Shown here in pieces: positions 1 through 14,373 of a stretch of 32,917 nt of DNA. Under the pieces are notes generated by a model. It was not told the DNA's origin, did not search any database, and worked only from the letters and a program-made list of their open reading frames with translations. The DNA is taken from IMG/VR virus record IMGVR_UViG_3300026549_000035, positions 1 through 32,917 of that record; one strand, given 5' to 3'. Each line of letters starts with the position of its first letter. The stretch's first letter is position 1. A program made the translations under genes and the position numbers. The DNA is from a virus.

Positions 1-88
<88 letters not shown>

Positions 89-96
89 ATGTATTT

Positions 97-125
97 ATTA
101 TAACACACTTTATTAGAAATGTCAA
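97..125 (-). promoter_or_regulatory. Sigma-A type promoter (TTGACA, 17 bp spacer, TATAAT) firing toward the poly(T) tract
   Basis: Minus strand reads TTGACAtttctaataaagtgtgtTATAAT. Positions 97-140 nearly duplicate the promoter block at 1113-1160. Confidence 0.6.
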
Positions 126-276
126 TAGTTTTCGGGAAAATTTTTTCTCGATTGCGCCCGGGCCAAATCAAAACAAAAAGAGCTAAATGGCTAGCCTCGT
201 GAAAATTCGACCGCATCGCGGTCTGTGTCGGTCACCATTCAGCAGGTGACTTTTCACAAAAGTCTTTTAATGGACA

Positions 277-348
277 CTAATCGCAACCAGTGGCACTGGC
301 GCAAACTTTAGCAATCAATAAAAGGGCTTTTACTAATTCAAGAGTCAT
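277..348 (-). CDS. Possible 23-aa hydrophobic peptide (MTLELVKALLLIAKVCASATGCD), apparently translationally coupled downstream of the AbrB-like gene
   Basis: AGGAG 9 nt upstream of the ATG. TAG stop. Followed by a structured ~150 nt 3' region with hairpins GTCACC..GGTGAC and GACCGC..GCGGTC. Confidence 0.3.
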   Translation of the reverse strand: MTLELVKALLLIAKVCASATGCD

Positions 349-367
349 AACATTTAGCTCCTTTCAA

Positions 368-619
368 TTATTTAGTTTTACTTTCAATAAGTTGTATTAA
401 TTTTTCGAATCGCTCATCAACTTCAAGGTCATCTTGCCAGTCTTGCCGCAATTCGTTTAAAACAGGAATAGTATCATTTTGACGTTTGCGTAAAATCAAT
501 TCACCATTGTCTTTTGGAATGATTTCAATTTCATCGCCACCCATCCAACGCAAAGCGCGTCTTACATCTCTTGGAATAGCGATACGTCCAATATCATCAA
601 TCTTTTTAATTATTACCAT
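368..619 (-). CDS. AbrB/MazE/SpoVT-family swapped-hairpin DNA-binding protein (83 aa)
   Basis: N-terminus MVIIKKIDDIGRIAIPRDVRRAL matches the IDxLGRIVIPxxxR AbrB-N motif. RBS GGATGTG. TAA stop. Own promoter at 646-674. Confidence 0.8.
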   Translation of the reverse strand: MVIIKKIDDIGRIAIPRDVRRALRWMGGDEIEIIPKDNGELILRKRQNDTIPVLNELRQDWQDDLEVDERFEKLIQLIESKTK

Positions 620-645
620 TTTATCACATCCTTTATTATAATAAA

Positions 646-674
646 ATTATAACAAATTTTTTCAAAAAAGTCAA
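646..674 (-). promoter_or_regulatory. Sigma-A type promoter TTGACT-17-TATAAT for the AbrB-like gene
   Basis: Minus strand reads TTGACTtttttgaaaaaatttgtTATAAT, followed by the RBS and the ATG. Confidence 0.7.
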
Positions 675-684
675 AAAAATCGGT

Positions 685-722
685 AAAAAACCCTAAAAAA
701 TCGTTATTTTTAGGGTTTTTTC
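685..722. terminator. Intrinsic terminator hairpin AACCCTAAAAA..TTTTTAGGGTT flanked by A and T runs, possibly bidirectional
   Basis: Inverted repeat with a T-tract on both strands, directly after the stop codon of gene 723..1091. Confidence 0.7.
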
Positions 723-1091
723 TTACTTTTTAGGTGGTCTATGCTTAATTAATGTGATAGAATAGTCATTTGAGCCAACAATTAGCGAAATTTCACGCTC
801 TTTTTTGATAATTGATACATCAAAACCGTCTTTTTCACTCAAAAAATCAGCAATTTCTTCAATAATTTGTCTTTTTTCAAGGTCAGGTTTACGTTCTCTT
901 TTAGTGAAATTATACGCTGTTTGTTTGCGTTCAGCCTGTCTATACTTACGGGTGCTTTTTTCTTGCTCAGGAGTTAAGTCAAATTCTGTCTTTTTTCCTT
1001 TGTCAACATCTTCATCATAGGCAAGAATTTCTCTGGCTTCTGCTTCTGAGATATCTAATTTTTTCATTAAAGATTGAATTTTTTCATTCAT
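723..1091 (-). CDS. Hypothetical protein (122 aa), paralog A1 of gene 3049..3417; both end KLIKHRPPKK
   Basis: Start chosen at MNEK, 7 nt after GGGGA. Promoter at 1122-1150. Clear sequence similarity to the 3049..3417 product. Confidence 0.7.
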   Translation of the reverse strand: MNEKIQSLMKKLDISEAEAREILAYDEDVDKGKKTEFDLTPEQEKSTRKYRQAERKQTAYNFTKRERKPDLEKRQIIEEIADFLSEKDGFDVSIIKKEREISLIVGSNDYSITLIKHRPPKK

Positions 1092-1121
1092 AAGCATTTC
1101 CCCTTTTTATTTGATGTATTT

Positions 1122-1150
1122 ATTATAACACATTTTTATTTAAATGTCAA
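1122..1150 (-). promoter_or_regulatory. Sigma-A type promoter TTGACA-17-TATAAT with CGCCCGGGCG palindrome 10 bp upstream of the -35
   Basis: Minus strand reads cgcccgggcgaaaaaactaTTGACAtttaaataaaaatgtgtTATAAT. Confidence 0.7.
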
Positions 1151-1174
1151 TAGTTTTTTCGCCCGGGCGAATCG

Positions 1175-1209
1175 CCCCCCTAAGGGGGCTGAGGGGTTAA
1201 CCCTCAGCC
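1175..1209 (-). other. Tandem GC-rich hairpins (CCCCCCTAAGGGGG and GGCTGAGGGGTTAACCCTCAGCC) at the 3' end of gene 1197..1565
   Basis: The stop codon of the gene lies inside the second hairpin. A near-identical hairpin recurs at 11893-11915. Confidence 0.5.
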
Positions 1210-1565
1210 ACGATACGGAAGTAGGTTCTCCGCTTCTCGGAGTACTTCTCAACCTTGCCTGCTTCAATAAGCTGGCGCATGAGAGCGGAAACGTGCTGAT
1301 TACTGTCGCCTTCAAGCTCAGCGATAGCCTTAAGCAAATCGGAAACAGTGAATCCAGTGTCCGCATTATCAGCAAGGAAATCAACGATAACTTCTTTCAG
1401 TTCCTCGTTTTTAACCTGCTGAGCGGTCAGCTTCTTGGGAGAAGCATTTTTCTTGTCAAGCTGTTCGACCATCTTGGTCAGCTTAGCAATAACTTCAGCA
1501 GGAGCGTCAGTTAGATGGTCGATGGCGTAGGTCAGAGCCTTGCGATTAGTCATCTTGTCGTTCAT
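1197..1565 (-). CDS. Hypothetical winged-helix-like protein (122 aa), paralog B1 of gene 4127..4492
   Basis: Both paralogs share KLTKMVEQLDKKNASPKKLTAQQVKNEELKEVIVDFLADN. RBS AGGAT. Tandem promoters at ~1600-1650 and ~1745-1790 with a conserved TATTACAGTCAAGGG leader. Confidence 0.7.
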   Translation of the reverse strand: MNDKMTNRKALTYAIDHLTDAPAEVIAKLTKMVEQLDKKNASPKKLTAQQVKNEELKEVIVDFLADNADTGFTVSDLLKAIAELEGDSNQHVSALMRQLIEAGKVEKYSEKRRTYFRIVAEG

Positions 1566-1954
1566 AGTATCAAATCCTTTCTGGTTTATTGGGTTTTCCT
1601 TCCCTTACTGTAGTTTTATTATAGCACATTCAGCGCTGATTGTCAAGGGTTTTTTCAAACTTTTTTTATTTTTTATTTTGAACGCCTACTCGTCAGTAGT
1701 TCGGGCAAGGACTAAGTCGTGCTCGCTCTCCGTTCCCTTGACTGTAATACTATTATAACACATTTATAAAAAAATACAAGTGGTAAAATCTACAGAGTTC
1801 GTCTAAATTTTTAACACTTTTTCATGCAAAATGCCAGAACCCCCGGGCGCCATAGGCTTTGAAAGTTTTTCATTTTTTTCTATTATTATTATATAATATT
1901 TTTTTATAAAAATCAATTGGTTCCCCGCTCTTTTCAGAATGGGGAACCTCATGA

Positions 1955-2527
1955 TTAGGCAACAGCGGAAACACCGCTATCCAAATAACTTTTTACGATT
2001 TTGTTAAATGTCAGCGTAGGAATGTCAACACCGAAAAATCGGTCGTTTTTCTTGAAAGCGTCAGGGAATCTGTGAATAAAAGCGGCTCTTGTGACCGATT
2101 CTGCACCCTCGGCAGGATAAGCACCGCAGTCAATTACAGAACAAATATCGGCTGATTCAACAGGAATACCACGCTTTTTATAATACTTGATTTCTTCTTT
2201 CAGTCTTTGCTCAGGTAATCGAGTAGTTGTACCGACCTTTGAGCAAATCAGCTCGCCGTTACTGTCATAGAACTTGTATAAATACACAAGCTGTTTACCG
2301 CCCCTTAAAACCTTTTTAGCTTTCAGGGTAATGTGATAAAATGTCTTGCAGGCTTTTTCTAAAAGTCCAGCAAACTTTTTCACATAACGCTTAATCGTTG
2401 ATTCTGCGTAACCAGTCCATTTCTTGATTTCTTCGGGGGTAAATCCATGACTGTCAAGATAAACCACCTGTAAATGTTTCTTGTCTGTATCCTCAAAACT
2501 TTGGAACACCTCAATTTTCTTTGCCAT
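1955..2527 (-). CDS. Hypothetical protein (190 aa) with a possible N-terminal HTH
   Basis: Start at ATG (MAKKIEV), 10 nt after AAAGGA. The GTG chosen by the ORF caller lies upstream. Promoter TTGACAactggcacagaatgtgcTATAAT at ~2555-2585. Hairpin terminator GGTTCCCC..GGGGAACC at ~1925-1955. Confidence 0.65.
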   Translation of the reverse strand: MAKKIEVFQSFEDTDKKHLQVVYLDSHGFTPEEIKKWTGYAESTIKRYVKKFAGLLEKACKTFYHITLKAKKVLRGGKQLVYLYKFYDSNGELICSKVGTTTRLPEQRLKEEIKYYKKRGIPVESADICSVIDCGAYPAEGAESVTRAAFIHRFPDAFKKNDRFFGVDIPTLTFNKIVKSYLDSGVSAVA

Positions 2528-2589
2528 TTTAACCACGTCCTTTTCTTTAGTGTTTTAATTATAGCACATTCTGTGCCAGTTGTCAAGCG

Positions 2590-2763
2590 TTATCTGTCAA
2601 AAATTGCAATAATAATTGCACAAAGAATGACAATAGCCAGAGGAATCCAGAAGGGGGCAAGAACCCACCACCAAGACCAAGTAATTACGCCGACAAGCTT
2701 CAAGATGATAAAGACAATTCCAAGAACGTCACATACGCCTAAGCCTACAACTTTAGTGTCCAT
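2590..2763 (-). CDS. Small membrane protein (57 aa, two predicted TM segments; the sequence includes a WSWWW motif)
   Basis: Not in the ORF track because it is <60 aa. Promoter TTGACAttctacaacaagtatgcTATAAT and RBS GAAAGGAGAG precede the ATG. Confidence 0.5.
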   Translation of the reverse strand: MDTKVVGLGVCDVLGIVFIILKLVGVITWSWWWVLAPFWIPLAIVILCAIIIAIFDR

Positions 2764-2832
2764 CTTTTTCTCTCCTTTCTCTCTTGATTACAATGTTATT
2801 ATAGCATACTTGTTGTAGAATGTCAATAGTTA

Positions 2833-3036
2833 TTACAAAATTGTAACCGCGCCCGGGCGAAAAAAGGGCGGGGAACGCCCACTTGGAAAAGGCGTTCCCT
2901 CGTTAATAATAAGTGTGATTATTTTCGGTTGCGGGCGAGGAAGTTTAGGAGCTTCTTGCCTTTTCTCGAACTCCTCAACCTCAAGAATAAAAGAGTCAAA
3001 AAAATCCAGAAAATCAGAATAACTTGTGTAATACAT
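2833..3036 (-). CDS. Hypothetical protein (67 aa), translationally coupled to gene 3049..3417
   Basis: Strong RBS GGAGGtttagaATG. The C-terminal part of the ORF runs through a terminator-like hairpin, so its extent is uncertain. Confidence 0.4.
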   Translation of the reverse strand: MYYTSYSDFLDFFDSFILEVEEFEKRQEAPKLPRPQPKIITLIINEGTPFPSGRSPPFFRPGAVTIL

Positions 3037-3048
3037 TCTAAACCTCCA

Positions 3049-3417
3049 TTACTTTTTAGGCGGGCGATGTTTAATCAGCTTCACCGAATAGCTATCACCT
3101 TTGAAAGTGAAATGTAAATCAGTTTCATTTTTCAAGGGTTCTGTGATTGCGCCCATGCCTTCCAAAAGAACACGAATACAGTTAATAATTTCTTTCTTGA
3201 TTTTATCAACTTTTCGCTCTCTTTTTACAGGGGTGCGTTTTTTCGAGCCTACCTTAGAAGCAGATTTTATCGCTTTTTTCTGCTCTGCCGTTAAATCAGA
3301 CTGAGCTTCTTTTACCGACATTTTGTCGATTTCTTCATCTTCTTCAAGAAGTTGAATAGCTTCTTCTCTGGAACATTCAAGCGTTTTCATCAGCTTTTGG
3401 ATTCGTTCTTCATTCAT
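3049..3417 (-). CDS. Hypothetical protein (122 aa), paralog A2 of gene 723..1091
   Basis: Start MNEER after AGAGGTG. Promoter TTGACAttttaatcaaaacgtgtTATAAT at ~3445-3480. Confidence 0.7.
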   Translation of the reverse strand: MNEERIQKLMKTLECSREEAIQLLEEDEEIDKMSVKEAQSDLTAEQKKAIKSASKVGSKKRTPVKRERKVDKIKKEIINCIRVLLEGMGAITEPLKNETDLHFTFKGDSYSVKLIKHRPPKK

Positions 3418-3479
3418 TATTAGCACCTCTCTTTCAGTGTCTTTATTATAACACGTTTTGATTAAAATGTCAATACTTT

Positions 3480-3850
3480 TTTAACAAAAAAAAATCAAAA
3501 TGTGGAGCTTTCATTATGGGGGCGGATCTGTGGATGTTATGGTTACCCTCACCGCCCAATGCTATGTTTTTTGAGTTTTCCTCTCAAAACTCCTAGCTAA
3601 AAACATAGAAAAGACTGGAAAAAGCCACCCCGCTTTTTTTAGTTGTTTTTTAGGTAAAAACATAGAAATGGGAGGTTGAAAACTAAAAAACTGAGCACTT
3701 TCTTTAAATATTTTTTCTTCTTGAAAAATTTTTGCCGCACTCATAGCCGTATTCTAATAAGTCACCAACACATCCATTATTTATTACTCATAGGGTCTTG
3801 ATGTTGGGTATCCCTCGTATAGTCCTAAAGATGAGGTACCTATCTCCTTA
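3480..3850 (-). ncRNA. Candidate non-coding or leader transcript driven by a duplicated ~90-bp promoter cassette (TTGACT-17-TATACT) at ~3855-3935
   Basis: No ATG-initiated ORF with an RBS. The only ORF (3562..3744, 60 aa) is low-complexity with no SD. Internal direct repeats TAAAAACATAGAAA. Ends in a GGGCGG..CCGCCC hairpin plus a U9 tract. Confidence 0.35.
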
Positions 3851-4000
3851 GAACACTTATAGTATAACACATAAAAGGTAAAAAGTCAATAGTTTTTTGA
3901 AAATTTTTTTCGTTATTTTTTTTAACAGGCACCCGGGCGCAAAGCCTGCGGAAATCCGCAGGCTAAGCACAGAAAGGAGGACTCAAAAATGAGGAGTTAT

Positions 4001-4075
4001 TGGTGCGTATAGTGGGAGTCGAACCCACCTAAACACGATTAAAAGTCGTGTGCATAGCCGCTTTGCTACATACGC
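4001..4075 (-). tRNA. tRNA-Lys, anticodon UUU, with an encoded CCA
   Basis: Acceptor stem GCGTATG/TATACGC (six Watson-Crick pairs plus one G-U). D-loop contains GG. Anticodon stem CACGA/TCGTG with loop CTTTTAA. T-arm GTGGG-TTCGACT-CCCAC. Discriminator A then CCA. Co-transcribed downstream of gene 4127..4492. Confidence 0.85.
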
Positions 4076-4126
4076 ATGATAGGGGGTGGGGGGATTTCGC
4101 TCCCCCCACGGAGCGGACTGAGGGAA

Positions 4127-4492
4127 TTAACCCGCAATCTTGAAGTAAGTCCGACGCTTCTCGGAGTATTTCTCGACCTTGTTCGCTTCAACGAGCTGAC
4201 GCATGAGAGCGGAAACGTGCTGATTGCTGTCACCTTCAAGCTCTGTGACAGACTTGATAAGGTCAGTGACCGTGAAGCCCTCATTCTCGTTATCAGCGAG
4301 GAAATCAACAATGACCTCTTTCAGCTCTTCGTTCTTGACCTGCTGAGCGGTCAGCTTCTTGGGAGAAGCGTTCTTCTTCTCCAACTGCTCCACCATCTTC
4401 TGAAGCTTTGCGGTAACTTCGGAATTGCTGTCACCGATAGCGTCGATGGCAAAAAGCAGGGCGGTCTTGTTAGTCATCTTGGTATTACTCAT
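4127..4492 (-). CDS. Hypothetical winged-helix-like protein (121 aa), paralog B2 of gene 1197..1565
   Basis: High sequence identity to 1197..1565. Tandem promoters at ~4545-4580 and ~4715-4760. Confidence 0.7.
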   Translation of the reverse strand: MSNTKMTNKTALLFAIDAIGDSNSEVTAKLQKMVEQLEKKNASPKKLTAQQVKNEELKEVIVDFLADNENEGFTVTDLIKSVTELEGDSNQHVSALMRQLVEANKVEKYSEKRRTYFKIAG

Positions 4493-4834
4493 AGTATCAA
4501 ATCCTTTCTGGTTTATTGGGTTTTCCTTCCCTTACTGTAGTTTTATTATAACACACCTTGCGGTAAAAGTCAAGGGTTTTTTCAAAGTTTTTTGAAAAAA
4601 TTTCTTCAAGTGTTGCAACTGCAATTCGGCTGTGCCTGTCCATTCTCGTAACCCCGTTAGGGATTGGTCATCAAATCACATAGGTCTTGGCTTGCTTGCC
4701 CTTGCCCTTGACTGTAATATTATTATAGCACATTCTCAAAAAAATGCAATAGGCAAAATGCACAAATCGGTCTAAATTTTTAACACTTTTTTGTGCATTT
4801 TGCGGGTGGCGCCCGGGCGCCCAAGGGCAGGCTG

Positions 4835-5332
4835 TTAGCCCACCCATGAGTAAACCTTGACTTTGGGAGTAATAGTCTTTTTAACCTTTTGCCATGTACC
4901 ACCATGTTCACGCCAGTCATATTTCGGATTAGGAATTGTATAGTTATTCCCATCATCATCGTGAACAATCAGCTCACGAGGCGGTGCCTCAGGGTTATCT
5001 ACCCAGTCTTCAACTTCAATAGTGATAGGTTCTCCATCAATTATCTCAGTCTTGATAATACCTTTATCAGAGAGAATTTTCATAACTCTGCCAATAAAGC
5101 TCGACCAGCTCCGAGCTTCTTTAGTACGCCCATAGGAGGTGTAGTCAAGAGAGCTTGAAAACTTACGAATAGCGTGCTTAGAATACTCCTCTCCCATGAT
5201 AGCGATACCAATTTCTTTACAGGTCATAGGCTTTGTTGCAGAGCGCAGAATATCAAGGACGATTTCGGTATTTGAGATTGTTTTCTTAGACTTTCTTGCT
5301 CCTACAAAAATTTCTTCATAACTTAATGACAT
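4835..5332 (-). CDS. Hypothetical protein (165 aa)
   Basis: ORF with promoter TAGACA-17-TATAAT at ~5385-5430. Terminator-like GGGTGG..CCACCC hairpin enclosing GCGCCCGGGCGC at ~4800-4835. Confidence 0.65.
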   Translation of the reverse strand: MSLSYEEIFVGARKSKKTISNTEIVLDILRSATKPMTCKEIGIAIMGEEYSKHAIRKFSSSLDYTSYGRTKEARSWSSFIGRVMKILSDKGIIKTEIIDGEPITIEVEDWVDNPEAPPRELIVHDDDGNNYTIPNPKYDWREHGGTWQKVKKTITPKVKVYSWVG

Positions 5333-5511
5333 TTTAAAATCTCCTTTTATTTATTTGATGGGGCTTGGCTTCCCTTCCCTCATCTGACATACTTATTATA
5401 ACAGATAATTTTCATTTTGTCTATTGGCAAATTGTATAAATATGGGTCTAAATTTTTAATATTTTTATACAGATTGTTAAACATACTGACAAAGCCCGAA
5501 GGGGCTAAGCA

Positions 5512-5703
5512 TTATTTAGAACGCTTAGCCCTACAAGCTTTGCACATCAGCGGTGAAGTTGCAACCGCAACCAACACGCACATGATACAGCCCAAAATGC
5601 GGAAGAAATCAAACTCACCAAGAGTGAATCCAAAAACATACAGACCCGCAAAAAAGGCACAAAGATAAGAAATGACGAACTTTACAATGTTGAGAACTTT
5701 CAT
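5512..5703 (-). CDS. Small membrane protein (63 aa)
   Basis: Hydrophobic ORF. Promoter TTGTTG..TATAAT and RBS AAAGGGG at ~5705-5760. Hairpin terminator GGGCTAAGC..GCTTAGCCC at ~5480-5512. Confidence 0.55.
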   Translation of the reverse strand: MKVLNIVKFVISYLCAFFAGLYVFGFTLGEFDFFRILGCIMCVLVAVATSPLMCKACRAKRSK

Positions 5704-5869
5704 AATTCACAACCCCTTTCTTTGTTGTGTCTTTATTATAGCATACCTTTTGGAAAAAATCAACAACAGGGTTGTCATTTTTCGGTTACAGAATTTTAAC
5801 CAGCCCGGGCGCAAGAGGGCGTTTATGAAAATGAAATGAAAAATGAGAAAATACTTATAAAAATGAAAT

Positions 5870-6162
5870 AAAAAAGGAAATGGATAGGCTATTGCCTACC
5901 CAAATCCTATACGTATTATAAAACAGAAAAAAGAGGAGGAATCTCAAAATCTGCGTAGTATTGGAAAGGAGTTGCCGTCGTCCAGTCCACACTCACTTAC
6001 AACGGCTGTGAGTTGTCTTTGCCTCACTAATTTTTATACCGCAAGGTGGTCTTACCTGACAAGTATCCTGTCTTGTGCGCTAACCCCACGTCGCTTACAC
6101 TTTTGCCACTGCTGGAAGAAGGCTCAATGCTTGCGGTCGAAAGAAGTTCTATCTCTCTTTTA
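5870..6162 (-). ncRNA. Candidate ~290-nt non-coding RNA (unit 2)
   Basis: Promoter TTGACTttttcattaaagtatgtTATAAT at ~6168-6203. The transcribed minus strand contains no AUG. Ends in an 8-bp hairpin GGGUAGGC..GCCUAUCC followed by a U-rich tract at ~5870-5901. Confidence 0.4.
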
Positions 6163-6209
6163 GTGTCTTTATTATAACATACTTTAATGAAAAAGTCAAG
6201 AGATTTTTA

Positions 6210-6565
6210 AAAATTTTTTTCTATCGTGAATGGGGGCAAAAGAGCTGGACTTACATTATCTTCTCAAATGCCGTCGTAATGCCCCCATTGAACGAGAGTT
6301 CCCTCATTGTCGGTCACTCTAAACCCATGCAAGAAGTTCTTTTGCCACTCTAACGCAGGCAAAAAGCTACTCACGTTCAAAAAGCCCCGCGTTGCTACCG
6401 CACTTGTTATTGTTCTTCACTCTTGAAAACAATCCATCTTCCGAGGCAGCGTTGAACACTACTCTGAAAAGTCACCAAGCCCGTTTTTTTTACTACTCAT
6501 GGGAGACTACTGGAACTCCCCTTTGTAGTTCCAAGTTCGTGGCGCCCTCTCCCTTGGAACACTTA
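6210..6565 (-). ncRNA. Candidate ~350-nt structured non-coding RNA (unit 1)
   Basis: Driven by the second copy of the ~90-bp promoter cassette (TTGACT-17-TATACT) at ~6575-6640. Strong stems (GGGAGA..UCUCCC, AAUGGGGGCA..UGCCCCCAUU, CUUUUGCC..GGCAAAAG). Only 13-17 codon AUG ORFs without an RBS. Confidence 0.35.
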
Positions 6566-6663
6566 TAGTATAACACATAAAAGGTAAAAAGTCAATAGTT
6601 TTTTGAAAAATTTTTTTCGTTATTTTTTTAACAAATGCCCGGGCGCGCACTAAGAGTTTTCCC

Positions 6664-7014
6664 TTAGTGCGTAAAATGAATGAACTGTTGAGCAGGTTCC
6701 CATTTCAGGTCATCCCATAGGAAATCTAATAAATTGTATTTTTTAAAGAGCCTATCAAAAGCGAATCTGGTAGGAATATCTAAGAGTTTAGAGCTTGGTA
6801 TTACTGAATTAGAATCTTCATCAAGATAAAAAACAATTCCTAAGAAGTAGCCCTCATCTGTCCAAGTGCTAATAATCGGACAGTATTTTTCATCAAAAAA
6901 TTCTTCAAATTCTTCTTCTGTCATTCCTTGCTCAAGAAACTTATCTAAAAGTTTGTCCCTTGTTTCAGAATCAATAACGATACCATATCCAACAGCATAA
7001 CTATCTTCTATCAT
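6664..7014 (-). CDS. Hypothetical acidic protein (116 aa), second gene of a two-gene operon
   Basis: RBS GGAGGAAtataatcATG directly after the stop of 7017..7271. Its TAA stop lies inside the terminator hairpin GCACTAAG..CTTAGTGC, next to GCGCCCGGGC. Confidence 0.65.
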   Translation of the reverse strand: MIEDSYAVGYGIVIDSETRDKLLDKFLEQGMTEEEFEEFFDEKYCPIISTWTDEGYFLGIVFYLDEDSNSVIPSSKLLDIPTRFAFDRLFKKYNLLDFLWDDLKWEPAQQFIHFTH

Positions 7015-7016
7015 GA

Positions 7017-7271
7017 TTATATTCCTCCATTATACAATAAACATAAAAAATAAATATTTAATACTGCACTTGAAAGGTGCATTACTAATCCACTTACTCT
7101 GCGGTCAGTGGTTAAATCTCGGATTATTCCTACCACAGCGATACCTAAACCAAGCCAAGAAATAGAAAGACCGAAGCACATAATAAGTATTACATTGATT
7201 ACCATAGCAACACAGCGCAGGTCATTCCATTCAAAGATGTAAGGCTCAGTAATATTGAAAAATCTCTTCAT
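7017..7271 (-). CDS. Small membrane protein (84 aa)
   Basis: Start MKRFF after AGAGGAG. Promoter TTGACAaataatttaaaacatgaTATAAT (extended -10 TGaTATAAT) at ~7285-7320. Confidence 0.6.
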   Translation of the reverse strand: MKRFFNITEPYIFEWNDLRCVAMVINVILIMCFGLSISWLGLGIAVVGIIRDLTTDRRVSGLVMHLSSAVLNIYFLCLLYNGGI

Positions 7272-7320
7272 CTTTATCAGCTCCTCTCTTTTTTCTATAT
7301 ATATTATATCATGTTTTAAA

Positions 7321-7446
7321 TTATTTGTCAAGCATTTCTTTATCCCAATCATCAAGAGCTTCCTTGCTCTGGTCGAGCCACGCGCCGAGGCTCGCGTCGC
7401 TCTCCACTTTCGAACTATATAAAAGCCATATAGGGGCTGTTGACAT
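7321..7446 (-). CDS. Small acidic protein (41 aa; MSTAPIWLLYSSKVESDASLGAWLDQSKEALDDWDKEMLDK)
   Basis: Missed by the ORF track because it is <60 aa. Strong RBS GGAAAGGAGAGG. Promoter TTGACAaagtggcacggggtgtgcTATAAT at ~7525-7560. Its last codons (L D K, then stop) are encoded by the -35 TTGACAAATAA of the next promoter. Confidence 0.45.
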   Translation of the reverse strand: MSTAPIWLLYSSKVESDASLGAWLDQSKEALDDWDKEMLDK

Positions 7447-7559
7447 GATTTCCTCTCCTTTCCACTTTCACACTTTACTGCGGTAAAGCCCCTCTCTCCC
7501 CTCGCAGGGGCGGGCTTCCGACACCTTTATTATAGCACACCCCGTGCCACTTTGTCAAG

Positions 7560-7790
7560 TTACAATTTTGTAACCTTTTCGTGCTTTAACGTATTAAAGC
7601 GTAGCGGTTTAACGTTTTAGTGTGCTAAAGTACTTTCGGGATTTACCATGTTAGCACTTTAACGTGTTAAAGCGTAACGATTTATTGCTTTAACGCTTTA
7701 GTGCGTGAAAACGGGTCGCGGCACCCAATCGCGACCCGCCGAATGCATAATTATTCATGGGTATGCTTGCATAAATATGCAAAAAAGGAT
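7560..7790. promoter_or_regulatory. Repeat-rich intergenic regulatory region: TTGTAAC direct repeats, multiple GCTTTAAC/GTTAAAGC palindromes, TTGCATAAATATGCAA, and the GC hairpin GGGTCGCG..CGCGACCC
   Basis: Iteron-like repeats read directly from the sequence. Architecture mirrors 9895-10095. Confidence 0.5.
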
Positions 7791-7848
7791 TGAGGTTAAT
7801 TCTCAACCCTTTATAAGTTTGTGTAGCGGTTTGGATTTTGAGGAAAAG

Positions 7849-8250
7849 CTATTTTAACTTTTCCTCAAGCCATGCTAACATTTTTTTACTTTCATCACGC
7901 AAGCGGATTTTTTCAGCTCCGCCATTTTTTTCGCTCTCTCTGGTAACGTAACCAAAAGCATTTACAAAAGCGATATACTCAGCTTTTTCCATAACGTAGG
8001 CTGTGCCGTTTCTGGTAGCGTAAATGTAAAGGTCAGAAGCGTCAAGGTCAAGGTATCTTTCAAGGTCTGTGCCTTTGCAGATAGAAGCCTTTGCGCTTTT
8101 CACTTGGAAGTTAAGAACATCAGCCCCTTTGTCAAATCTCAGGTTATCAGCCTTTAGGATTTCACCTGTTAAATGAAATCTGATTGACTGCTCTGCGTTT
8201 TGTCCGTGATTGCGGTAGTTGTTAAGATAAGTGAAAGTAAATGCTCTCAT
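7849..8250 (-). CDS. Hypothetical protein (133 aa)
   Basis: Start MRAF after AAAGGA. Promoter TTGACAagCCCGGGCtgatgtgcTATAAT at ~8255-8310. Imperfect hairpin terminator at ~7775-7812. Confidence 0.65.
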   Translation of the reverse strand: MRAFTFTYLNNYRNHGQNAEQSIRFHLTGEILKADNLRFDKGADVLNFQVKSAKASICKGTDLERYLDLDASDLYIYATRNGTAYVMEKAEYIAFVNAFGYVTRESEKNGGAEKIRLRDESKKMLAWLEEKLK

Positions 8251-8319
8251 TTTTCGATCGTCCTTTCGTCTTTCGTTAATACTATTATAGCACATCAGCC
8301 CGGGCTTGTCAAGCCTTTT

Positions 8320-8481
8320 TCAAGAAAAAATATAATTTTTCTTGAAACTGTAAAAGGCTTGTTCAAACTGTAAAAGCTCCGACAGAGTGAAACGGCTTGC
8401 GAAATGCTCAGGCGTTTCATCAAACAGGTAATAGCCATTTTTTACCATTCTTTCCACGACATAAATTTTTGATTCTTTCAT
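8320..8481 (-). CDS. Small protein (53 aa; MKESKIYVVERMVKNGYYLFDETPEHF...)
   Basis: Below 60 aa, so absent from the ORF track. RBS GAGAGGAGAA. Extended -10 promoter (acaTGaTATAAT) paralogous to the promoter at 7285-7320. Confidence 0.45.
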   Translation of the reverse strand: MKESKIYVVERMVKNGYYLFDETPEHFASRFTLSELLQFEQAFYSFKKNYIFS

Positions 8482-8545
8482 TTTAGTTTTCTCCTCTCTC
8501 TTTACTATCTATATTATATCATGTTACGTGTCCTATAAACGGGAC

Positions 8546-8950
8546 TTAGAGAGCTACCGCTTCACCTTTTTCAGCTAAAGTGATTGCTTCATATCCAGCC
8601 TTTGTCCATTGGCGGGTATTCTTGGGGTCATCATCAACCAGAACGCCAACCTCACGGATAAAATCAACTTTGCGACCATAACCAACTATGCAGATAAAAT
8701 TTGCAAGTGCAAATTCGGGAATGTGCTTTGCAAGCCAATCAATTTTTCCCGCCTTGCCTGCTTCGTTGCGGGCTTTGGTCAGAATGTAAACCTTGACGCC
8801 TTCAGCGATAAGTCTGCGGACTGTTGAAACGTTCTCAGTGAATGGTTCAAGATTTGCCATAGCTTCACGGCTTGCGGCAGTGTTTTTGTCAGTAGCATAC
8901 GCTTTGTGGAAGTTGGCGAGAACGCCGTCCATGTCAAAGTAGTAAGTCAT
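8546..8950 (-). CDS. HAD-superfamily 5'(3')-deoxyribonucleotidase-like protein (134 aa)
   Basis: N-terminal motif YFDMDGVLANF (DxDGV, typical of NT5C-type nucleotidases). Start MTYYF after GGAGG. Promoter TTGACAtCCCGGGCtgtttggtgTATAAT. Confidence 0.8.
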   Translation of the reverse strand: MTYYFDMDGVLANFHKAYATDKNTAASREAMANLEPFTENVSTVRRLIAEGVKVYILTKARNEAGKAGKIDWLAKHIPEFALANFICIVGYGRKVDFIREVGVLVDDDPKNTRQWTKAGYEAITLAEKGEAVAL

Positions 8951-9093
8951 TTTTCGATCCTCCGTGTCTTTCATTGTCTTAATTATACACCAAACAGCCC
9001 GGGATGTCAAGCGTTTTTTGAAAAAAAATATTTTTTGTTAAAATGCACAAATTGGGAATATAGAATTTGTGCAACATTTAGCGCATTTTTCTC

Positions 9094-9122
9094 TTGACTT
9101 TTGGTGGGAGGTGTAGTATAAT
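9094..9122 (+). promoter_or_regulatory. Plus-strand sigma-A type promoter TTGACT-17-TATAAT driving a ~65-nt transcript antisense to the 3' end of gene 9181..9363
   Basis: TTGACTtttggtgggaggtgtagTATAAT. The transcript has hairpin GGGGCG..CGCCCC and terminates in the 10-bp stem ATAAGCGGAT..ATCCGCTTAT (9160-9184), shared with the convergent gene. Confidence 0.55.
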
Positions 9123-9180
9123 ATTTCGGGGCGCCACGCCCCTGATCGGTGACAAAAAAATAAGCGGATTTGCGATCCGC

Positions 9181-9363
9181 TTATCTGTGCCAGATTTTGA
9201 GGCTTGAAGCATACCGACCGAGGGGATACGTGCGAACCTCTTGTAGTTCAACATAAGAAACTTTGCCGACTTTTGAATTGAAGTAAGCAAGCGCCTCATC
9301 ATAGTTACGGAAAGCCTCATCTTCTCTAAAATTCCAAGTCACTACATAAAACATTTCTTTCAT
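9181..9363 (-). CDS. Small protein (60 aa), member of a 56-65 aa paralog family (with 12185..12355 and 13783..13980)
   Basis: Promoter TTGACAagCCCGGGCttttgatgTATAAT and RBS AAAGGAAAGAGG. Shares the YFN..V..ELK..IW pattern with 12185..12355. Confidence 0.6.
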   Translation of the reverse strand: MKEMFYVVTWNFREDEAFRNYDEALAYFNSKVGKVSYVELQEVRTYPLGRYASSLKIWHR

Positions 9364-9454
9364 TTTTCTTACCTCTTTCCTTTATCTTATGTATACATTA
9401 TACATCAAAAGCCCGGGCTTGTCAAGCCCTTTTATTGGACTTTGTAAAATTTTT

Positions 9455-9622
9455 TTATTTGCTCCAATCAGGGTTGAAAACCACAAAACCGTTGACATTT
9501 TTTGCGACTTCTTCTGCTTTGTCTGCGTTATCAAACGCACCCCAAAACCAGTCAGCACCGTCGCACTCTCTCGCTACGATGTAGGGAAAATCATCGGCGT
9601 AATCAGGCACATTCTTAATCAT
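9455..9622 (-). CDS. Small acidic protein (55 aa; MIKNVPDYADDFPYIVARECDGADWFWGAFDNADKAEEVAKNVNGFVVFNPDWSK)
   Basis: Missed by the ORF track. RBS AAGAGAGGAG. Promoter TTGACAaactcgatctcttggggTATACT, preceded by GGTTACAA..GTTACAA direct repeats. The overlapping plus-strand ORF 9389..9655 is an artefact. Confidence 0.5.
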   Translation of the reverse strand: MIKNVPDYADDFPYIVARECDGADWFWGAFDNADKAEEVAKNVNGFVVFNPDWSK

Positions 9623-9727
9623 TTTTCAAGCTCCTCTCTTAACTTTCTATACTAAGTATACCCCAAGAGATCGAGTTTGTCAAGCATTTTTTGAGATTGT
9701 AACTAATTTGTAACCTTTTGGATAATA

Positions 9728-9856
9728 AAAAAAATGAGGGCTTGCGCCCTCGGTGCTGACTTGCTCTCAGCTGGAACAGAGCTTTGTTTTAAGTGCGCCC
9801 ACCACTCGTAGTGTCGGCTGGTTTTTAGGTGTGCTCTGTTTCTCCCTTCACCCTAC
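9728..9856 (-). ncRNA. Candidate small RNA (~125 nt): consensus promoter, no AUG anywhere in the transcript, classic intrinsic terminator
   Basis: Promoter TTGACTtttataacataatcgtgTATAAT (-10 at 9863-9868). Terminator GAGGGCgcaaGCCCUC plus U8 at 9727-9752. Internal stem CAGAGC..GCUCUG. Confidence 0.5.
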
Positions 9857-9894
9857 AAGTAGATTATACACGATTATGTTATAAAAGTCAAGCA

Positions 9895-10095
9895 TTTTTT
9901 GAAATTGTAACTATTTTGTAACCTTTGCATACCCATGCATAATTATGCATACTTTCGGGATTTAATACTTTAGTGTGTTAAAGTGCATAATTATGCACTT
10001 TATTGTTGTAGCACTTTAACGCGCTAAAATCGGCGCGGGTCGATCGTAGGCGCGCCGCCGAAACAAAGTCCAATAAAATGGACTGAATAATTATG
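9895..10095. promoter_or_regulatory. Palindrome-rich regulatory region: ATGCATAATTATGCAT (perfect 16-bp), GTTAAAGTGCATAATTATGCACTTTA, GCACTTTAACG, TTGTAAC repeats, GC hairpin GGCGCG..GCGCGCC
   Basis: Read directly from the sequence. Shares TACTTTCGGGATTTA and the motif families with 7560-7790. Confidence 0.45.
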
Positions 10096-10117
10096 CAAAA
10101 AAAAATGCGGTCACCGC

Positions 10118-10375
10118 TCAGGGGAAAATCTGAGCGGTGATGTCAACGACAATCCAGCGAGAGCCGTCCTCAGAGAGGGAGCGTTCCCAGACCAAACCGC
10201 AAGGGAGAAAAATGCGGTTTCTGCGTTCCCAGCCTCGAACTGCCATGTCAATGAACAGCTCGAACATCTGGCTCTGAGTGAGACCTTCGAAAAGGCTTCT
10301 GACGAACCACATCTGACCATCGTCAGGAACAAGGCTCAGCAGAGTGCGGTAGTGGTTAAAATCTTTCTTAGTCAT
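10118..10375 (-). CDS. Hypothetical protein (85 aa)
   Basis: RBS AAAGGAGGAA. Promoter TTGACT-17-TATAAT at ~10400-10440. C-terminal codons and the TGA stop are encoded inside the terminator stem CACCGCTCAG..CTGAGCGGTG followed by a U9 tract. Confidence 0.6.
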   Translation of the reverse strand: MTKKDFNHYRTLLSLVPDDGQMWFVRSLFEGLTQSQMFELFIDMAVRGWERRNRIFLPCGLVWERSLSEDGSRWIVVDITAQIFP

Positions 10376-10528
10376 GTTAGTTCCTCCTTTGGGGGGGTAG
10401 CCCCTCTTTCATTGTCTTTATTATAGCACACTCGGGCAAAAAAGTCAATAGTTTTTTCAAAGAAAGTATTCGTCAAAATATACAAATCGGGAATCTTTTT
10501 TGACTGTGAAGTTTGTGCATTTTGCGAA

Positions 10529-10557
10529 TTGATTTTTGCGGCGGGCTGTGGTATAAT
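10529..10557 (+). promoter_or_regulatory. Plus-strand promoter TTGATT-17-TATAAT driving a short transcript antisense to the 3' end of gene 10603..10911
   Basis: The transcript begins AATTTCCGGC and ends at hairpin GGATTAGC..GCTAATCC (10600-10620). The same architecture recurs at 9094 and 12477. Confidence 0.5.
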
Positions 10558-10602
10558 AATTTCCGGCTCTGGCGCCCGGGCACGGTGACGAAAAGAAAAG
10601 GA

Positions 10603-10911
10603 TTAGCAATACGCTAATCCCATTGTTTTCCAATTCAAAATTGAAATTTGATTGCATTTTCTTCCAATTGTCAGAGCCTCTCTTTTAGTATTAACTCTGT
10701 GACTTTTATCAACATAGTAAATACCATTTGAAAACCATACGCCGCAGTTTCCATTATACGCTTTTACTGCGTTTATTGCTTCTCTTGGGCTTGTCGTTTC
10801 AACGCCTTCCGTTGCAACCTGCCAGCCTGTTTTGTAGGTTGTGGCTTTTCCCTTTTTTAAGGTTAAGCCCTCATTTTCTTTAAGTTTCAGAATTGAACGA
10901 ATGTTAATCAT
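10603..10911 (-). CDS. Hypothetical protein (102 aa)
   Basis: Start MINIRS after AGAGAGGAG. Promoter TTGACTtttcgCTCGGGCtgtgcTATAAT at ~10935-10980. Confidence 0.6.
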   Translation of the reverse strand: MINIRSILKLKENEGLTLKKGKATTYKTGWQVATEGVETTSPREAINAVKAYNGNCGVWFSNGIYYVDKSHRVNTKREALTIGRKCNQISILNWKTMGLAYC

Positions 10912-11002
10912 TTTCTTATCTCCTCTCTTTATTGTGTCTTTATTATAGCACAGCCCGAGCGAAAAGTCAAGTGTTTTTTCAAAAAAAATAAAGGGCGTAT
11001 TT

Positions 11003-11272
11003 TTACGCCCATTGTAATTTTCCATCGACTACATAGATAACACTCTCTGCGCCATCGTATTCATCGACATAGTGGTCGGTGCAATTTTCGGGAAGCTCAA
11101 CAACTTTTAACTCAGCGTGAGTTCCATTTACATCTTCCCCTGCTTCTATTGCTGAGATTAACTCAGCATTATAGCGGAGTTCTTCACTATCATGAGAATC
11201 AATTCCAAGGCGGTCTGCCCATTCCTTAGATACGCTAAATCCACCATAGCAAGCATTGACAATTAATTTCAT
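11003..11272 (-). CDS. Hypothetical acidic protein (89 aa)
   Basis: RBS AAGAGAGGAG. Promoter TTGACTtttggatgcgtctatgcTATAAT at ~11285-11335. Stop overlaps terminator GGGCGTA..TACGCCC plus a T-tract. Confidence 0.65.
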   Translation of the reverse strand: MKLIVNACYGGFSVSKEWADRLGIDSHDSEELRYNAELISAIEAGEDVNGTHAELKVVELPENCTDHYVDEYDGAESVIYVVDGKLQWA

Positions 11273-11397
11273 TTTTTTTTATCTCCTCTCTTTATTGTAT
11301 CTTTATTATAGCATAGACGCATCCAAAAGTCAATAGTTAAATTGCACAAAGATGTGATAAGAATTCTGTGCAGATTGACGAATCCGCCCGGGCGCAA

Positions 11398-11544: not shown

Positions 11545-11587
11545 TTTTATCTCCCCTTTCATTGTCTTTATTATAGCACAAAACCCC

Positions 11588-14365: not shown

Positions 14366-14373
14366 CTTGCCCC

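What the first reader, a model, noticed from the sequence alone, without database searches (positions are those of the whole stretch)
4001..4075. Phage tRNA-Lys(UUU) embedded in an early operon; it is not a suppressor
A canonical 75-nt tRNA with anticodon UUU and an encoded CCA sits directly after gene 4127..4492. The two are separated only by a GTGGGGGG..CCCCCCAC hairpin that may serve as a processing site. The late genes are extremely rich in AAA codons, so the tRNA would support their translation. The TAG reassignment demands a CUA-anticodon tRNA, which is absent from this window and so must be encoded elsewhere in the phage or supplied by the host.
Basis: partly seen in the sequence, partly recalled or inferred. 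Interest (0 to 1): 0.6.

Follow-up and report, generated by a model that had tools for sequence, protein, structure and literature searches.

The report
Early-expressed phage lysine tRNA gene
This is a genuine lysine tRNA gene carried by a large gut or rumen phage that reads the TAG stop codon as glutamine in its late genes; the tRNA is made early and plays no part in the recoding, so it is an ordinary, well-preserved example of a phage-encoded tRNA.

Summary
ARAGORN and Rfam both find one tRNA in the window: tRNA-Lys(UUU), minus strand 4075→4001, with an encoded CCA. It sits 51 nt after the stop codon of gene 4127..4492, behind a 9-bp G/C hairpin.

The core interpretation holds:
- The tRNA lies in the standard-code arm, which is packed with consensus sigma-70-type promoters, so it is probably early.
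- It is not a suppressor. In-frame TAG codons in the late arm align with Gln in relatives, not Lys.
- No CUA-anticodon tRNA is in the window.

Two sub-claims weaken:
- AAA is the top codon in both arms (70 and 68 per 1000), so it is not late-specific.
- The hairpin goes with the protein gene. A paralogous gene without a tRNA has an equivalent hairpin.

New here: eight syntenic relatives keep this tRNA as the only tRNA in 7–20 kb of early arm each. The tRNA and hairpin are invariant while the flanks diverge. The same tRNA lineage sits in another phage's tRNA array next to a Tpt1/KptA gene. No sequenced bacterium or deposited phage has a close copy.

Whether the benefit is AAA codon supply or replacement of nuclease-cleaved host tRNA-Lys (as for T5 and PARIS) cannot be decided here. 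It is a new member of a known kind, of modest interest.

The parts
4545..4573 (-). Promoter of the transcription unit: TTGACT, 17-nt spacer, TGnTATAAT (11 of 12 positions, extended -10), preceded by an A/T-rich tract
   Evidence: The promoter and 5' UTR are nearly identical to those of the paralogous unit at about 1618..1646.
4127..4492 (-). 121-aa early ORFan gene co-transcribed upstream of the tRNA. GC is 49% and it prefers AAG (13 AAG, 2 AAA). It is a paralog of 1197..1565.
   Evidence: No PHROG hit. Only a sub-threshold Pfam DUF5797 hit, E = 0.0075. A winged-helix-like C-terminus is my own reading of the sequence and was not tested.
4086..4109 (-). 9-bp G/C hairpin with a 6-nt loop, no U-tract, -20.1 kcal/mol. 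It lies 17 nt after the stop codon and 10 nt before the tRNA.
   Evidence: All 24 positions are invariant in nine syntenic genomes. An analogous hairpin follows the paralog that has no tRNA (1174..1189). The terminator scan does not list it.
4001..4075 (-). tRNA-Lys, anticodon UUU, discriminator A73, encoded CCA, short 7-nt D-loop
   Evidence: It is 75/75 identical in nine syntenic genomes while the flanks vary. Lineage relatives show compensatory changes in the acceptor and D stems.
3965..4000 (-). 3' trailer of the tRNA. It contains an invariant UCCUCCUUUCU (3981..3971) that resembles the anti-Shine-Dalgarno end of 16S rRNA.
   Evidence: 8 of 36 columns vary but this motif does not; the 10-mer occurs twice against 0.07 expected. 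The meaning is ambiguous (see Noticed in passing).
3943..3964 (-). Terminator-like hairpin, 9 bp with a 4-nt loop, -22.8 kcal/mol, followed by UUUG. It probably marks the 3' end of the unit.
   Evidence: Two stem pairs change compensatorily in L090/L092 (A-U to G-C, C-G to U-A). It lacks a full U-tract, is not listed by the terminator scan, and L090 has CCUG after it.
3861..3889 (-). Next promoter (TTGACT-17-TATACT, extended -10), which marks the downstream boundary of the tRNA unit
   Evidence: It is conserved in the relatives.
1174..1565 (-). Paralogous unit without a tRNA: gene 1197..1565 (122 aa, about 80% nucleotide identity) plus its own G/C hairpin at 1174..1189. It serves as an internal control.

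Best explanation
This is a functional, phage-encoded elongator tRNA-Lys(UUU).

How it is made (inferred): host RNA polymerase transcribes it early from the consensus promoter at 4573..4545 as the 3' part of a short transcript: 121-aa ORFan gene, G/C hairpin, tRNA, terminator-like hairpin. RNase P cuts at the tRNA 5' end. That leaves the upstream mRNA ending in the stable hairpin, which would protect it from 3' exonucleases. The tRNA 3' end is trimmed back to the encoded CCA.

What it does (inferred): host LysRS charges it, consistent with anticodon UUU and A73. It adds capacity to decode AAA (and AAG). AAA is the most used codon of this AT-rich phage, about 7% of all codons in both early and late genes. 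It has no role in the TAG-to-Gln recoding of the late genes.

Shown here: the gene, its cloverleaf, its anticodon, its position in the promoter-rich standard-code arm, its strict conservation, the codon counts, and TAG = Gln.

Not shown: transcription timing, processing steps, charging, and the fitness benefit.
For: tRNA identity and structure.

Transcription unit: one consensus promoter upstream of the gene, no strong site between gene and tRNA, a hairpin 36 nt downstream with compensatory changes.

Early arm against late arm: 19 perfect consensus promoters and 91 sites against 45 expected in 1..17000. There is no site matching 11 or 12 of 12 positions, and 81 found against 81.5 expected, in 17000..32917. 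The late arm starts with a phage sigma-factor gene (phrog_5767, E = 1.5e-59).

Selection: the tRNA is 75/75 invariant in nine syntenic genomes, while the adjacent coding gene varies at 12.3% of columns, the trailer at 22%, and the region further downstream at over 50%. At the coding-gene rate, zero changes in 75 columns has a probability of about 5e-5 (my arithmetic). All eight relatives keep it at the same place as their only tRNA in the 7-20 kb fetched from each, and at least one locus (L183) runs about 10 kb past the window's left edge.

The lineage evolves as a tRNA: compensatory acceptor-stem and D-stem changes in L089 and L091.

Codon demand: AAA is the top codon in both arms, 70.2 and 67.9 per 1000, and AAA/(AAA+AAG) is 0.84 in late genes. 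In the only candidate-host-type contigs (Oscillospiraceae-like L118/L166), AAA:AAG is about 1:1 and AAA about 31 per 1000. That host lead is weak.

Not involved in recoding: TAG aligns with Gln.
Against: The host is unknown, so the key quantity for codon supply (phage minus host AAA usage, and host tRNA-Lys gene content) could not be computed. AAA is not enriched in late over early genes (ratio 1.03). AAT (2.2x) and TTA (2.6x) are, so a purely late-gene compensation logic would favour other tRNAs. The gene co-transcribed with the tRNA prefers AAG 13:2. Lys(UUU) is also the classic target of anticodon nucleases, so the same facts fit the anti-defence rival. If it carries a full tRNA array with another Lys(UUU), simple supply becomes less compelling for this copy.
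Confidence: 0.5

Rival explanations
1. Anti-defence replacement tRNA. The host, or a resident prophage or plasmid, carries a nuclease that cleaves host tRNA-Lys(UUU) on infection, like PrrC or PARIS AriB. The phage expresses its own very divergent tRNA-Lys(UUU) from an early consensus promoter. The nuclease does not recognise this copy, so translation continues. This is how phage T5's tRNA-Lys works against PARIS.
For: tRNA-Lys(UUU) is the documented target of PrrC (PMC10264068) and of PARIS AriB, which cuts between positions 40 and 41. T5 escapes with its own tRNA-Lys (PMC11464382). Here the tRNA is the only tRNA in at least 26 kb of early arm. It lies among ORFan genes with no PHROG match, which look like takeover genes, behind one of the strong early promoters. 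It is perfectly conserved. Its body is unlike any bacterial tRNA-Lys found: the best match is 58/72, most of it the anticodon arm I imposed, and the D-arm GCAA-AGCGGCU-AUGC differs from the usual AGCUCAGUUGGUAGAGC. In another phage the same lineage sits next to a Tpt1/KptA RNA 2'-phosphotransferase, an RNA-repair-type enzyme.
Against: There is no evidence for any nuclease, because the host is unknown. The anticodon loop is the canonical CUUUUAA. The whole anticodon arm is identical to that of a genuine host-type tRNA-Lys in an Oscillospiraceae MAG (Congzhengia, L118, in a 12-tRNA operon). If the host resembles that MAG, a T5-style anticodon-stem escape is not what is happening. Divergent tRNA bodies are common in phage tRNAs whatever their role. 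Relatives in this phage family carry 28-36 tRNAs scattered among small ORFs, so a tRNA among small early-type genes is not unusual in itself.
Confidence: 0.3
2. RNA-processing punctuation. The tRNA is kept mainly as an RNase P cleavage site that, with the upstream hairpin, defines and stabilises the 3' end of the gene 4127..4492 mRNA. Decoding is secondary.
For: Hairpin and tRNA are both invariant and only 10 nt apart. RNase P cleavage would leave the mRNA ending in a -20 kcal/mol hairpin.
Against: The paralogous gene 1197..1565 manages with a hairpin alone. The same tRNA lineage is kept in another phage inside a tRNA array with no such gene. Every decoding feature is intact and under selection: anticodon loop, A73, CCA, tertiary nucleotides.
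Confidence: 0.05
3. Near-cognate read-through helper. An over-expressed tRNA-Lys(UUU) occasionally reads UAG or UAA (first-position mismatch) and so contributes to read-through of in-frame TAG.
For: From my own knowledge, not checked here: tRNA-Lys is among the near-cognate tRNAs reported to read UAA/UAG in yeast read-through studies. Lys is the fourth most common residue (after Q, TAG and E) opposite our TAG codons in relatives (297 of about 4,370 aligned positions).
Against: The residue profile opposite TAG equals that opposite ordinary Gln codons, so the K counts are normal Q/K substitutions. CAG depletion with TAG gain points to Gln. Relatives use dedicated Sup-CUA(Gln) tRNAs (PMC10607447). 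With 86 in-frame TAG codons, up to 11 per gene, efficient cognate suppression is needed.
Confidence: 0.03
4. Phage attachment site or remnant. The tRNA gene is an attP-type integration target or a passively carried piece of host DNA.
For: Many temperate phages integrate into tRNA genes (established knowledge).
Against: The tRNA is full length. No sequenced genome holds a close copy: 58/72 at best among tRNAs sharing its anticodon arm. All ORFs in the arm are 190 aa or shorter, too short for an integrase. The 20 largest gave no integrase match. Strict conservation with compensatory evolution argues for function.
Confidence: 0.02

Closest known systems
Phage T5 tRNA-Lys, the suppressor of the PARIS (AriA/AriB) defence system (PMC11464382)
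   Same: A phage-encoded tRNA-Lys(UUU) that can stand in for the host isoacceptor. Its sequence differs from host-type tRNA-Lys. It belongs to a large lytic phage.
   Different: T5's copy is one of 23 clustered tRNAs, and its resistance maps to an anticodon-stem base-pair swap next to the 40/41 cleavage site. Here the tRNA is alone in an early arm. Its anticodon arm equals that of at least one plausible host-type tRNA-Lys. No nuclease or host is known. Nothing functional was tested.
tRNA complements of phAss-1 / proposed Phassvirus, TAG-to-Gln recoded gut phages (PMC10607447; OQ749652)
   Same: The same broad phage group: capsid-like protein 50% identical. TAG is read as Gln in structural genes. 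tRNAs lie on the arm of small non-recoded genes, scattered among small ORFs.
   Different: phAss-1 has 36 tRNAs, including three Sup-CUA, one Lys(UUU) and one Lys(CUU). Its Lys tRNAs are unrelated in sequence to ours. In our clade only this one tRNA is seen in the 26 kb or more of early arm that could be read. Where its Sup-CUA lies is unknown.
Codon-compensating phage tRNAs (classic view; discussed in PMC10264068)
   Same: The tRNA reads the phage's most frequent codon, and the phage is AT-rich.
   Different: The defining comparison with host codon usage and host tRNA supply could not be made. AAA is not enriched in late relative to early genes.
SPO1-type host-takeover modules of large Firmicutes myoviruses (my own knowledge, not checked here)
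   Same: A long run of very small ORFan genes, nearly each with its own strong host-type promoter, next to a divergent switch into phage-sigma-dependent genes. Distant capsid relatives are Enterococcus and Bacillus phages.
   Different: To my knowledge the SPO1 module is not described as containing a tRNA. Here the module coincides with the standard-code half of a genome that switches genetic code.

Membership tests
Canonical tRNA (Rfam RF00005) | Covariance-model score above the curated gathering score | tested here: met
   58.6 bits against 29, E = 2e-10, full model 1-71. ARAGORN agrees.
Canonical tRNA (Rfam RF00005) | Four-arm cloverleaf maintained by compensatory change | tested here: met
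   97.1% of cells paired, 15 of 21 pairs with changes on both sides, 0 of 500 shuffles as good, slid registers 28-49% paired. Within the lineage, acceptor UA/UA changes to CG/CG in L089 and a D-stem A-U changes to C-G in L091.
Canonical tRNA (Rfam RF00005) | Conserved tertiary-interaction nucleotides (U8, A14, G18G19, U33, T-loop UUCRANU) | tested here: met
   Read from the cmscan alignment. One oddity: positions 15 and 48 are G and G rather than a purine-pyrimidine pair.
tRNA-Lys(UUU) isoacceptor | Anticodon UUU at positions 34-36 in a CUUUUAA loop | tested here: met
tRNA-Lys(UUU) isoacceptor | Discriminator base A73, a secondary LysRS identity element alongside the anticodon (established knowledge) | tested here: met
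   The sequence ends ...UAUACGC-A-CCA.
tRNA-Lys(UUU) isoacceptor | Aminoacylation with lysine by LysRS | not testable with these tools
   Needs biochemistry or tRNA-seq of the charged fraction.
Suppressor tRNA that serves the TAG reassignment | Anticodon CUA | tested here: not met
   The anticodon is UUU, and there is no other tRNA in the window.
Suppressor tRNA that serves the TAG reassignment | The amino acid at recoded TAG positions equals the tRNA's amino acid | tested here: not met
   TAG aligns with Gln (Q 1433, K 297), the same profile as ordinary Gln codons. CAG is depleted in late genes.
Nuclease-evading phage tRNA (T5 tRNA-Lys / PARIS type) | Same isoacceptor as a known nuclease target | tested here: met
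   Lys(UUU) is the PrrC and AriB target (PMC10264068, PMC11464382).
Nuclease-evading phage tRNA (T5 tRNA-Lys / PARIS type) | Differs from the host tRNA at the nuclease's recognition or cleavage site | tested here: inconclusive
   The host is unknown. The anticodon arm is identical to that of an Oscillospiraceae host-type tRNA-Lys (L118). The D-arm, variable loop and T-arm differ from every bacterial tRNA-Lys retrieved.
Nuclease-evading phage tRNA (T5 tRNA-Lys / PARIS type) | The host carries a tRNA-Lys-cleaving system, and the tRNA rescues infection | not testable with these tools
   There is no host genome and no experiment.
Codon-compensating phage tRNA | The cognate codon is heavily used by the phage | tested here: met
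   AAA is the most frequent codon in both arms, 70.2 and 67.9 per 1000.
Codon-compensating phage tRNA | The cognate codon is used more by the phage than by the host, or the host tRNA is scarce | tested here: inconclusive
   There is only a weak host lead. L118/L166 show AAA:AAG of about 1:1 and about 31 AAA per 1000. The late/early ratio within the phage is 1.03.
tRNA-gene attachment site (attP) | An adjacent integrase, and identity to a host tRNA 3' half | tested here: not met
   No ORF over 190 aa in the arm. No integrase family hit among the 20 proteins scanned. No close bacterial copy among tRNAs sharing its anticodon arm.

The most novel reading that the evidence does not exclude
The solitary, invariant, early-promoter-driven tRNA-Lys(UUU) belongs to a phage-only lineage with a non-bacterial D-arm. 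It may be an anti-defence gene: a nuclease-insensitive replacement for host tRNA-Lys(UUU) in rumen or gut Clostridia. That would extend the T5/PARIS principle to genetic-code-switching phages of Firmicutes. Its neighbour in another phage, a Tpt1/KptA gene, would then hint at a linked RNA-repair countermeasure.
Probability: 0.3. Interest if true: 0.5.

Novelty: new member of a known kind. Interest (0 to 1): 0.28.

Why it matters
Phage-encoded tRNAs are common, and a Lys(UUU) tRNA adds nothing new in kind. Its value is as a clean test case. It is a single tRNA, perfectly conserved across a clade, placed in the host-polymerase-dependent, standard-code half of a phage whose late half reads TAG as Gln.

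It shows that the code switch and this tRNA are separate matters. It also offers a simple one-gene system for asking whether lone phage tRNAs serve codon supply or defence evasion in gut Firmicutes, where almost nothing is known about tRNA-targeting immunity.

The surrounding architecture is arguably more interesting than the tRNA itself. About 30 consensus promoters drive tiny ORFan genes, followed by a divergent switch into a TAG-containing sigma-factor gene.

Tried and rejected
1. TAG = Lys, which would have linked the tRNA to the recoding. Rejected: TAG aligns with Gln.

2. The hairpin as a tRNA-specific processing signal. Rejected as the main role, because the paralog without a tRNA has an equivalent hairpin.

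3. Finding the window in deposited phages. Megablast of 1..12000 found nothing. Blastn of the tRNA plus hairpin found nothing.

4. Relatives of the upstream gene in IMG/VR found none. It is not on record by exact protein look-up either.

5. tRNAs near the capsid gene in 60 relatives: none. Seven loci sharing an early NT5C-like gene held only one unrelated tRNA-Asn.

6. Locating the clade's Sup-CUA tRNA.
   - Anchoring on phAss-1 nrdD reached only near-identical phAss-1 relatives.
   - A Sup-CUA core pattern hit 69 IMG/VR contigs, none on the list of capsid relatives.
   - This stays unresolved. The rest of the 177,555-bp source-like contig could not be fetched.

7. A recent bacterial origin for the tRNA. 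The genome scan for its anticodon arm gave mostly Cetobacterium and Alphaproteobacteria tRNA-Lys, with at most 58/72 identity. The scan required an identical anticodon arm, so tRNAs with other arms were not examined.

8. A structured or known RNA in the roughly 400-nt promoter-driven stretch downstream (3855..3480). There is no Rfam match, and the fold z-score is -0.36.

9. A + strand mini-ORF antisense to the tRNA behind a perfect RBS. Its ATG is lost in L090/L092.

Full report
**1. Observation**

ARAGORN finds one tRNA in the 32,917-base window: tRNA-Lys, anticodon UUU, at 4001..4075 on the minus strand. Rfam's tRNA model scores 58.6 bits against a gathering score of 29, E = 2e-10, over 4075..4004, and the next three bases are CCA.

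The RNA reads GCGUAUG-UA-GCAA-AGCGGCU-AUGC-A-CACGA-CUUUUAA-UCGUG-UUUAG-GUGGG-UUCGACU-CCCAC-UAUACGC-A-CCA. The anticodon loop is canonical. The discriminator is A73. The D-loop is short at 7 nt.

On an alignment of ten tRNA-Lys sequences the cloverleaf is 97.1% paired. Fifteen of 21 pairs change on both sides, and no shuffle or slid register comes close.

Gene 4127..4492 (121 aa) is on the same strand. Its stop codon is followed after 17 nt by a 9-bp G/C hairpin (4109..4086, -20.1 kcal/mol), then 10 nt, then the tRNA.

**2. Genomic setting**

The window is a divergent junction in a large phage genome.

*The + strand arm (16031..32917).* This arm only makes sense if TAG is read through. The summed length of stop-to-stop frames of 100 aa or more across the window rises from 6,236 to 11,239 aa, and the new long frames lie almost entirely on this arm, where ORFs become contiguous. 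Sixteen of 18 gene models carry 1-11 in-frame TAG codons, and all end in TAA or TGA. The arm encodes:
- a phage sigma factor (phrog_5767);
- a large terminase interrupted by HNH endonuclease genes;
- a portal protein;
- a capsid-like protein.

*The minus strand arm (1..16000).* This arm holds about 37 small ORFs in the standard code. Twenty of the largest were scanned: only four matched a Pfam family above its curated score (NT5C, MazE-type, DUF7352) or a PHROG of unknown function, and the rest matched nothing above threshold.

*Promoters.* In 1..17000 the scan finds 91 sigma-70-type sites against 45 expected. Nineteen are perfect TTGACA-17-TATAAT, mostly with an extended -10, and nearly all are on the minus strand. 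The recoded arm has no site matching 11 or 12 of 12 positions and no enrichment (81 found, 81.5 expected).

So the tRNA arm is read by host polymerase and is early. The other arm probably depends on the phage sigma factor, whose own gene has a host-type promoter and two TAG codons.

**3. The transcription unit**

The unit runs in this order:
- promoter 4573..4545 (TTGACT-17-TGnTATAAT);
- the 121-aa gene;
- the G/C hairpin;
- the tRNA;
- a 36-nt trailer;
- a second hairpin (3964..3943, -22.8 kcal/mol) followed by UUUG;
- an A-tract and the next promoter (3889..3861).

The scan lists no strong promoter between the gene and the tRNA. Neither hairpin has the U-tract of a textbook intrinsic terminator. 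The second one shows two compensatory pair changes in relatives, which supports a real structure.

**4. An internal control for the hairpin**

The window holds a paralogous unit. Gene 1197..1565 is about 80% identical in DNA to gene 4127..4492, with an almost identical promoter and 5' UTR. Genes 723..1097 and 3049..3417 are also paralogs.

The paralog is followed by its own G/C hairpin (1189..1174) but no tRNA, and its next promoter follows directly. So the hairpin belongs to the protein gene. It is best read as a 3' stabiliser or weak terminator of that mRNA, not as a tRNA processing signal.

The tRNA cassette occupies the space between that hairpin and the shared GCCCGGG/A-tract/promoter segment.

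**5. TAG is Gln, so the tRNA is not part of the recoding**

I compared our late proteins with 80 related loci. The residues opposite our in-frame TAG codons are Q 1433, TAG 713, E 373, K 297. This profile matches the one opposite ordinary CAA/CAG codons.

CAG has nearly disappeared from late genes (13 CAG, 86 TAG), while early genes use it normally. The closest published relative, phAss-1, was also assigned TAG = Gln and carries three Sup-CUA genes (PMC10607447). I confirmed those genes in its record, far from its structural genes.

**6. Codon usage**

| Measure | Late genes | Early genes |
|---|---|---|
| AAA per 1000 codons | 70.2 | 67.9 |
| AAA/(AAA+AAG) | 0.84 | 0.66 |

AAA is the most frequent codon in both arms. 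AAT and TTA are the codons enriched in late genes. The gene co-transcribed with the tRNA prefers AAG 13:2.

**7. Relatives**

The capsid-like protein has 122 confirmed relatives in IMG/VR, mostly on contigs of 100-200 kb. The 80 best are 76-99% identical. In GenBank it matches phAss-1 at 50% and Enterococcus, Bacillus and other Firmicutes phages at 26-40%.

The tRNA itself was traced as follows:
- Two metagenome contigs (L090, L092) are syntenic with our early arm at 82-95% nucleotide identity.
- Six more contigs (L183-L188) came from an exact-protein look-up.
- L188 lies on a 177,555-bp contig and is 100% identical to the window over 1.3 kb. It is effectively the source genome.

All eight carry the tRNA at the same place, as the only tRNA in the 7-20 kb fetched from each. 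At least one of them (L183) runs about 10 kb beyond the window's left edge.

Variation across the nine copies:

| Segment | Variable columns |
|---|---|
| tRNA | 0 of 75 |
| G/C hairpin | 0 of 24 |
| Coding gene 4127..4492 | 12.3% |
| Spacer | 18% |
| Trailer | 22% |
| Further downstream | over 50% |

**8. The tRNA lineage**

The same tRNA, with a compensatory UA/UA to CG/CG change in the acceptor stem, sits in an otherwise unrelated 66-kb phage contig (L001/L089). There it lies inside a nine-tRNA array, directly upstream of a Tpt1/KptA RNA 2'-phosphotransferase gene (PF01885, E = 8e-50).

More distant members with the same short D-loop occur in L091, L135 and a 28-tRNA array in L164. phAss-1's own Lys tRNAs are unrelated. 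No deposited phage genome matches the tRNA.

I scanned 185,579 species genomes for its anticodon arm. The hits were mostly Cetobacterium and Alphaproteobacteria tRNA-Lys, with at most 58/72 identity overall.

One hit is a host lead. A host-type tRNA-Lys in a 12-tRNA operon of an Oscillospiraceae MAG (Congzhengia, L118) has an identical anticodon arm and a near-identical acceptor stem (GCGGAUG against GCGUAUG). That family was also proposed as the host group for phAss-1 (PMC10607447). The lead is weak.

**9. Mechanism and rivals**

What is well supported: this is a functional elongator tRNA-Lys(UUU), expressed early with an ORFan gene, kept under strong purifying selection, and unrelated to TAG decoding.

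Why the phage keeps it is not settled.

*Codon supply* fits AAA being the top codon. If the Oscillospiraceae lead is right, it also fits a host with about half the phage's AAA frequency.

*Anti-defence* fits several facts:
- Lys(UUU) is the known target of PrrC and PARIS.
- T5 provides a direct precedent (PMC11464382, PMC10264068).
- The gene is solitary and lies in an early, takeover-like region.
- The tRNA body is unlike bacterial tRNA-Lys.
- The lineage neighbours Tpt1/KptA in another phage.

The anticodon arm matches a plausible host-type tRNA, so a T5-style stem escape is not indicated.

My probabilities are about 0.5 for supply, 0.3 for anti-defence, and small values for processing punctuation, near-cognate read-through and an attP remnant.

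**10. Verdict**

The finding is real and its core interpretation is right. It is a new member of a known kind, a phage-encoded tRNA, with good comparative support and an open but testable question about its benefit. Interest is modest.

Noticed in passing
window 1..16000, minus strand: There is an extraordinary density of consensus promoters: 19 perfect TTGACA-17-TATAAT sites, most with an extended -10 TG, and about 30 matching at least 11 of 12 positions. Nearly every small ORFan gene has its own, often preceded by A-tracts. The layout looks like an SPO1-style host-takeover module and coincides exactly with the standard-code half of the genome.
   Followed up: partly
window 15942..17080: This is the divergent switch region. 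A perfect host-type promoter at 15973..16001 (+) drives a phage sigma-factor gene (16031..17080, phrog_5767) that contains two in-frame TAG codons. Full-length sigma factor, and hence late transcription, would therefore depend on TAG suppression.
   Followed up: partly
window 3971..3981 (minus-strand RNA); also 23272..23281: The tRNA 3' trailer contains an invariant UCCUCCUUUCU, like the anti-Shine-Dalgarno 3' end of 16S rRNA. The 10-mer occurs twice against 0.07 expected. Read on the + strand it is a late-type RBS (AGAAAGGAGG) 8 nt before an ATG at 3990, opening a mini-ORF antisense to the tRNA. That ATG is ATA in L090/L092. The meaning is unclear.
   Followed up: partly
window 723..1565 and 3049..4492: A two-gene module is duplicated: 121/122-aa genes at about 80% DNA identity with near-identical promoter and 5' UTR, and 122/124-aa genes both ending ...IKHRPPKK. 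Only one copy contains the tRNA cassette, plus an extra promoter-driven stretch of about 400 nt (3855..3480) with no convincing ORF, no Rfam match and no unusual fold.
   Followed up: yes
window 18068..22590: The large terminase appears split into fragments at 19513..19806 and 20246..21574. Two HNH homing-endonuclease-like genes (18068..18901 and 21754..22590) lie in and around it, and these also carry in-frame TAG codons.
   Followed up: no
L001/L089 285..357 (minus strand): The unrelated 66-kb phage contig that shares this tRNA-Lys lineage also encodes a tRNA with anticodon UUA, which would read the TAA stop codon. It sits in a nine-tRNA array that also holds a Tpt1/KptA RNA 2'-phosphotransferase gene at L001 1213..671. 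Whether that phage recodes TAA was not examined.
   Followed up: no
L164 1236..6113: A 21.8-kb contig binned as a Lachnospiraceae MAG carries 28 tRNA genes in 5 kb, including a Lys(UUU) of the same short-D-loop lineage. It is probably a phage contig mis-binned into a MAG.
   Followed up: no
L124 1525..1600: ARAGORN reports a tRNA with a four-base anticodon (caga) in a tRNA cluster of Clostridium sp. OF03-18AA. It may be a frameshift-suppressor-like tRNA or an artefact.
   Followed up: no
window 26591..28741: The two most highly expressed-looking structural genes (341 aa and 368 aa, the latter capsid-like) contain no in-frame TAG at all and have higher GC than their neighbours. The surrounding late genes carry up to 11 TAG codons.
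   Followed up: no
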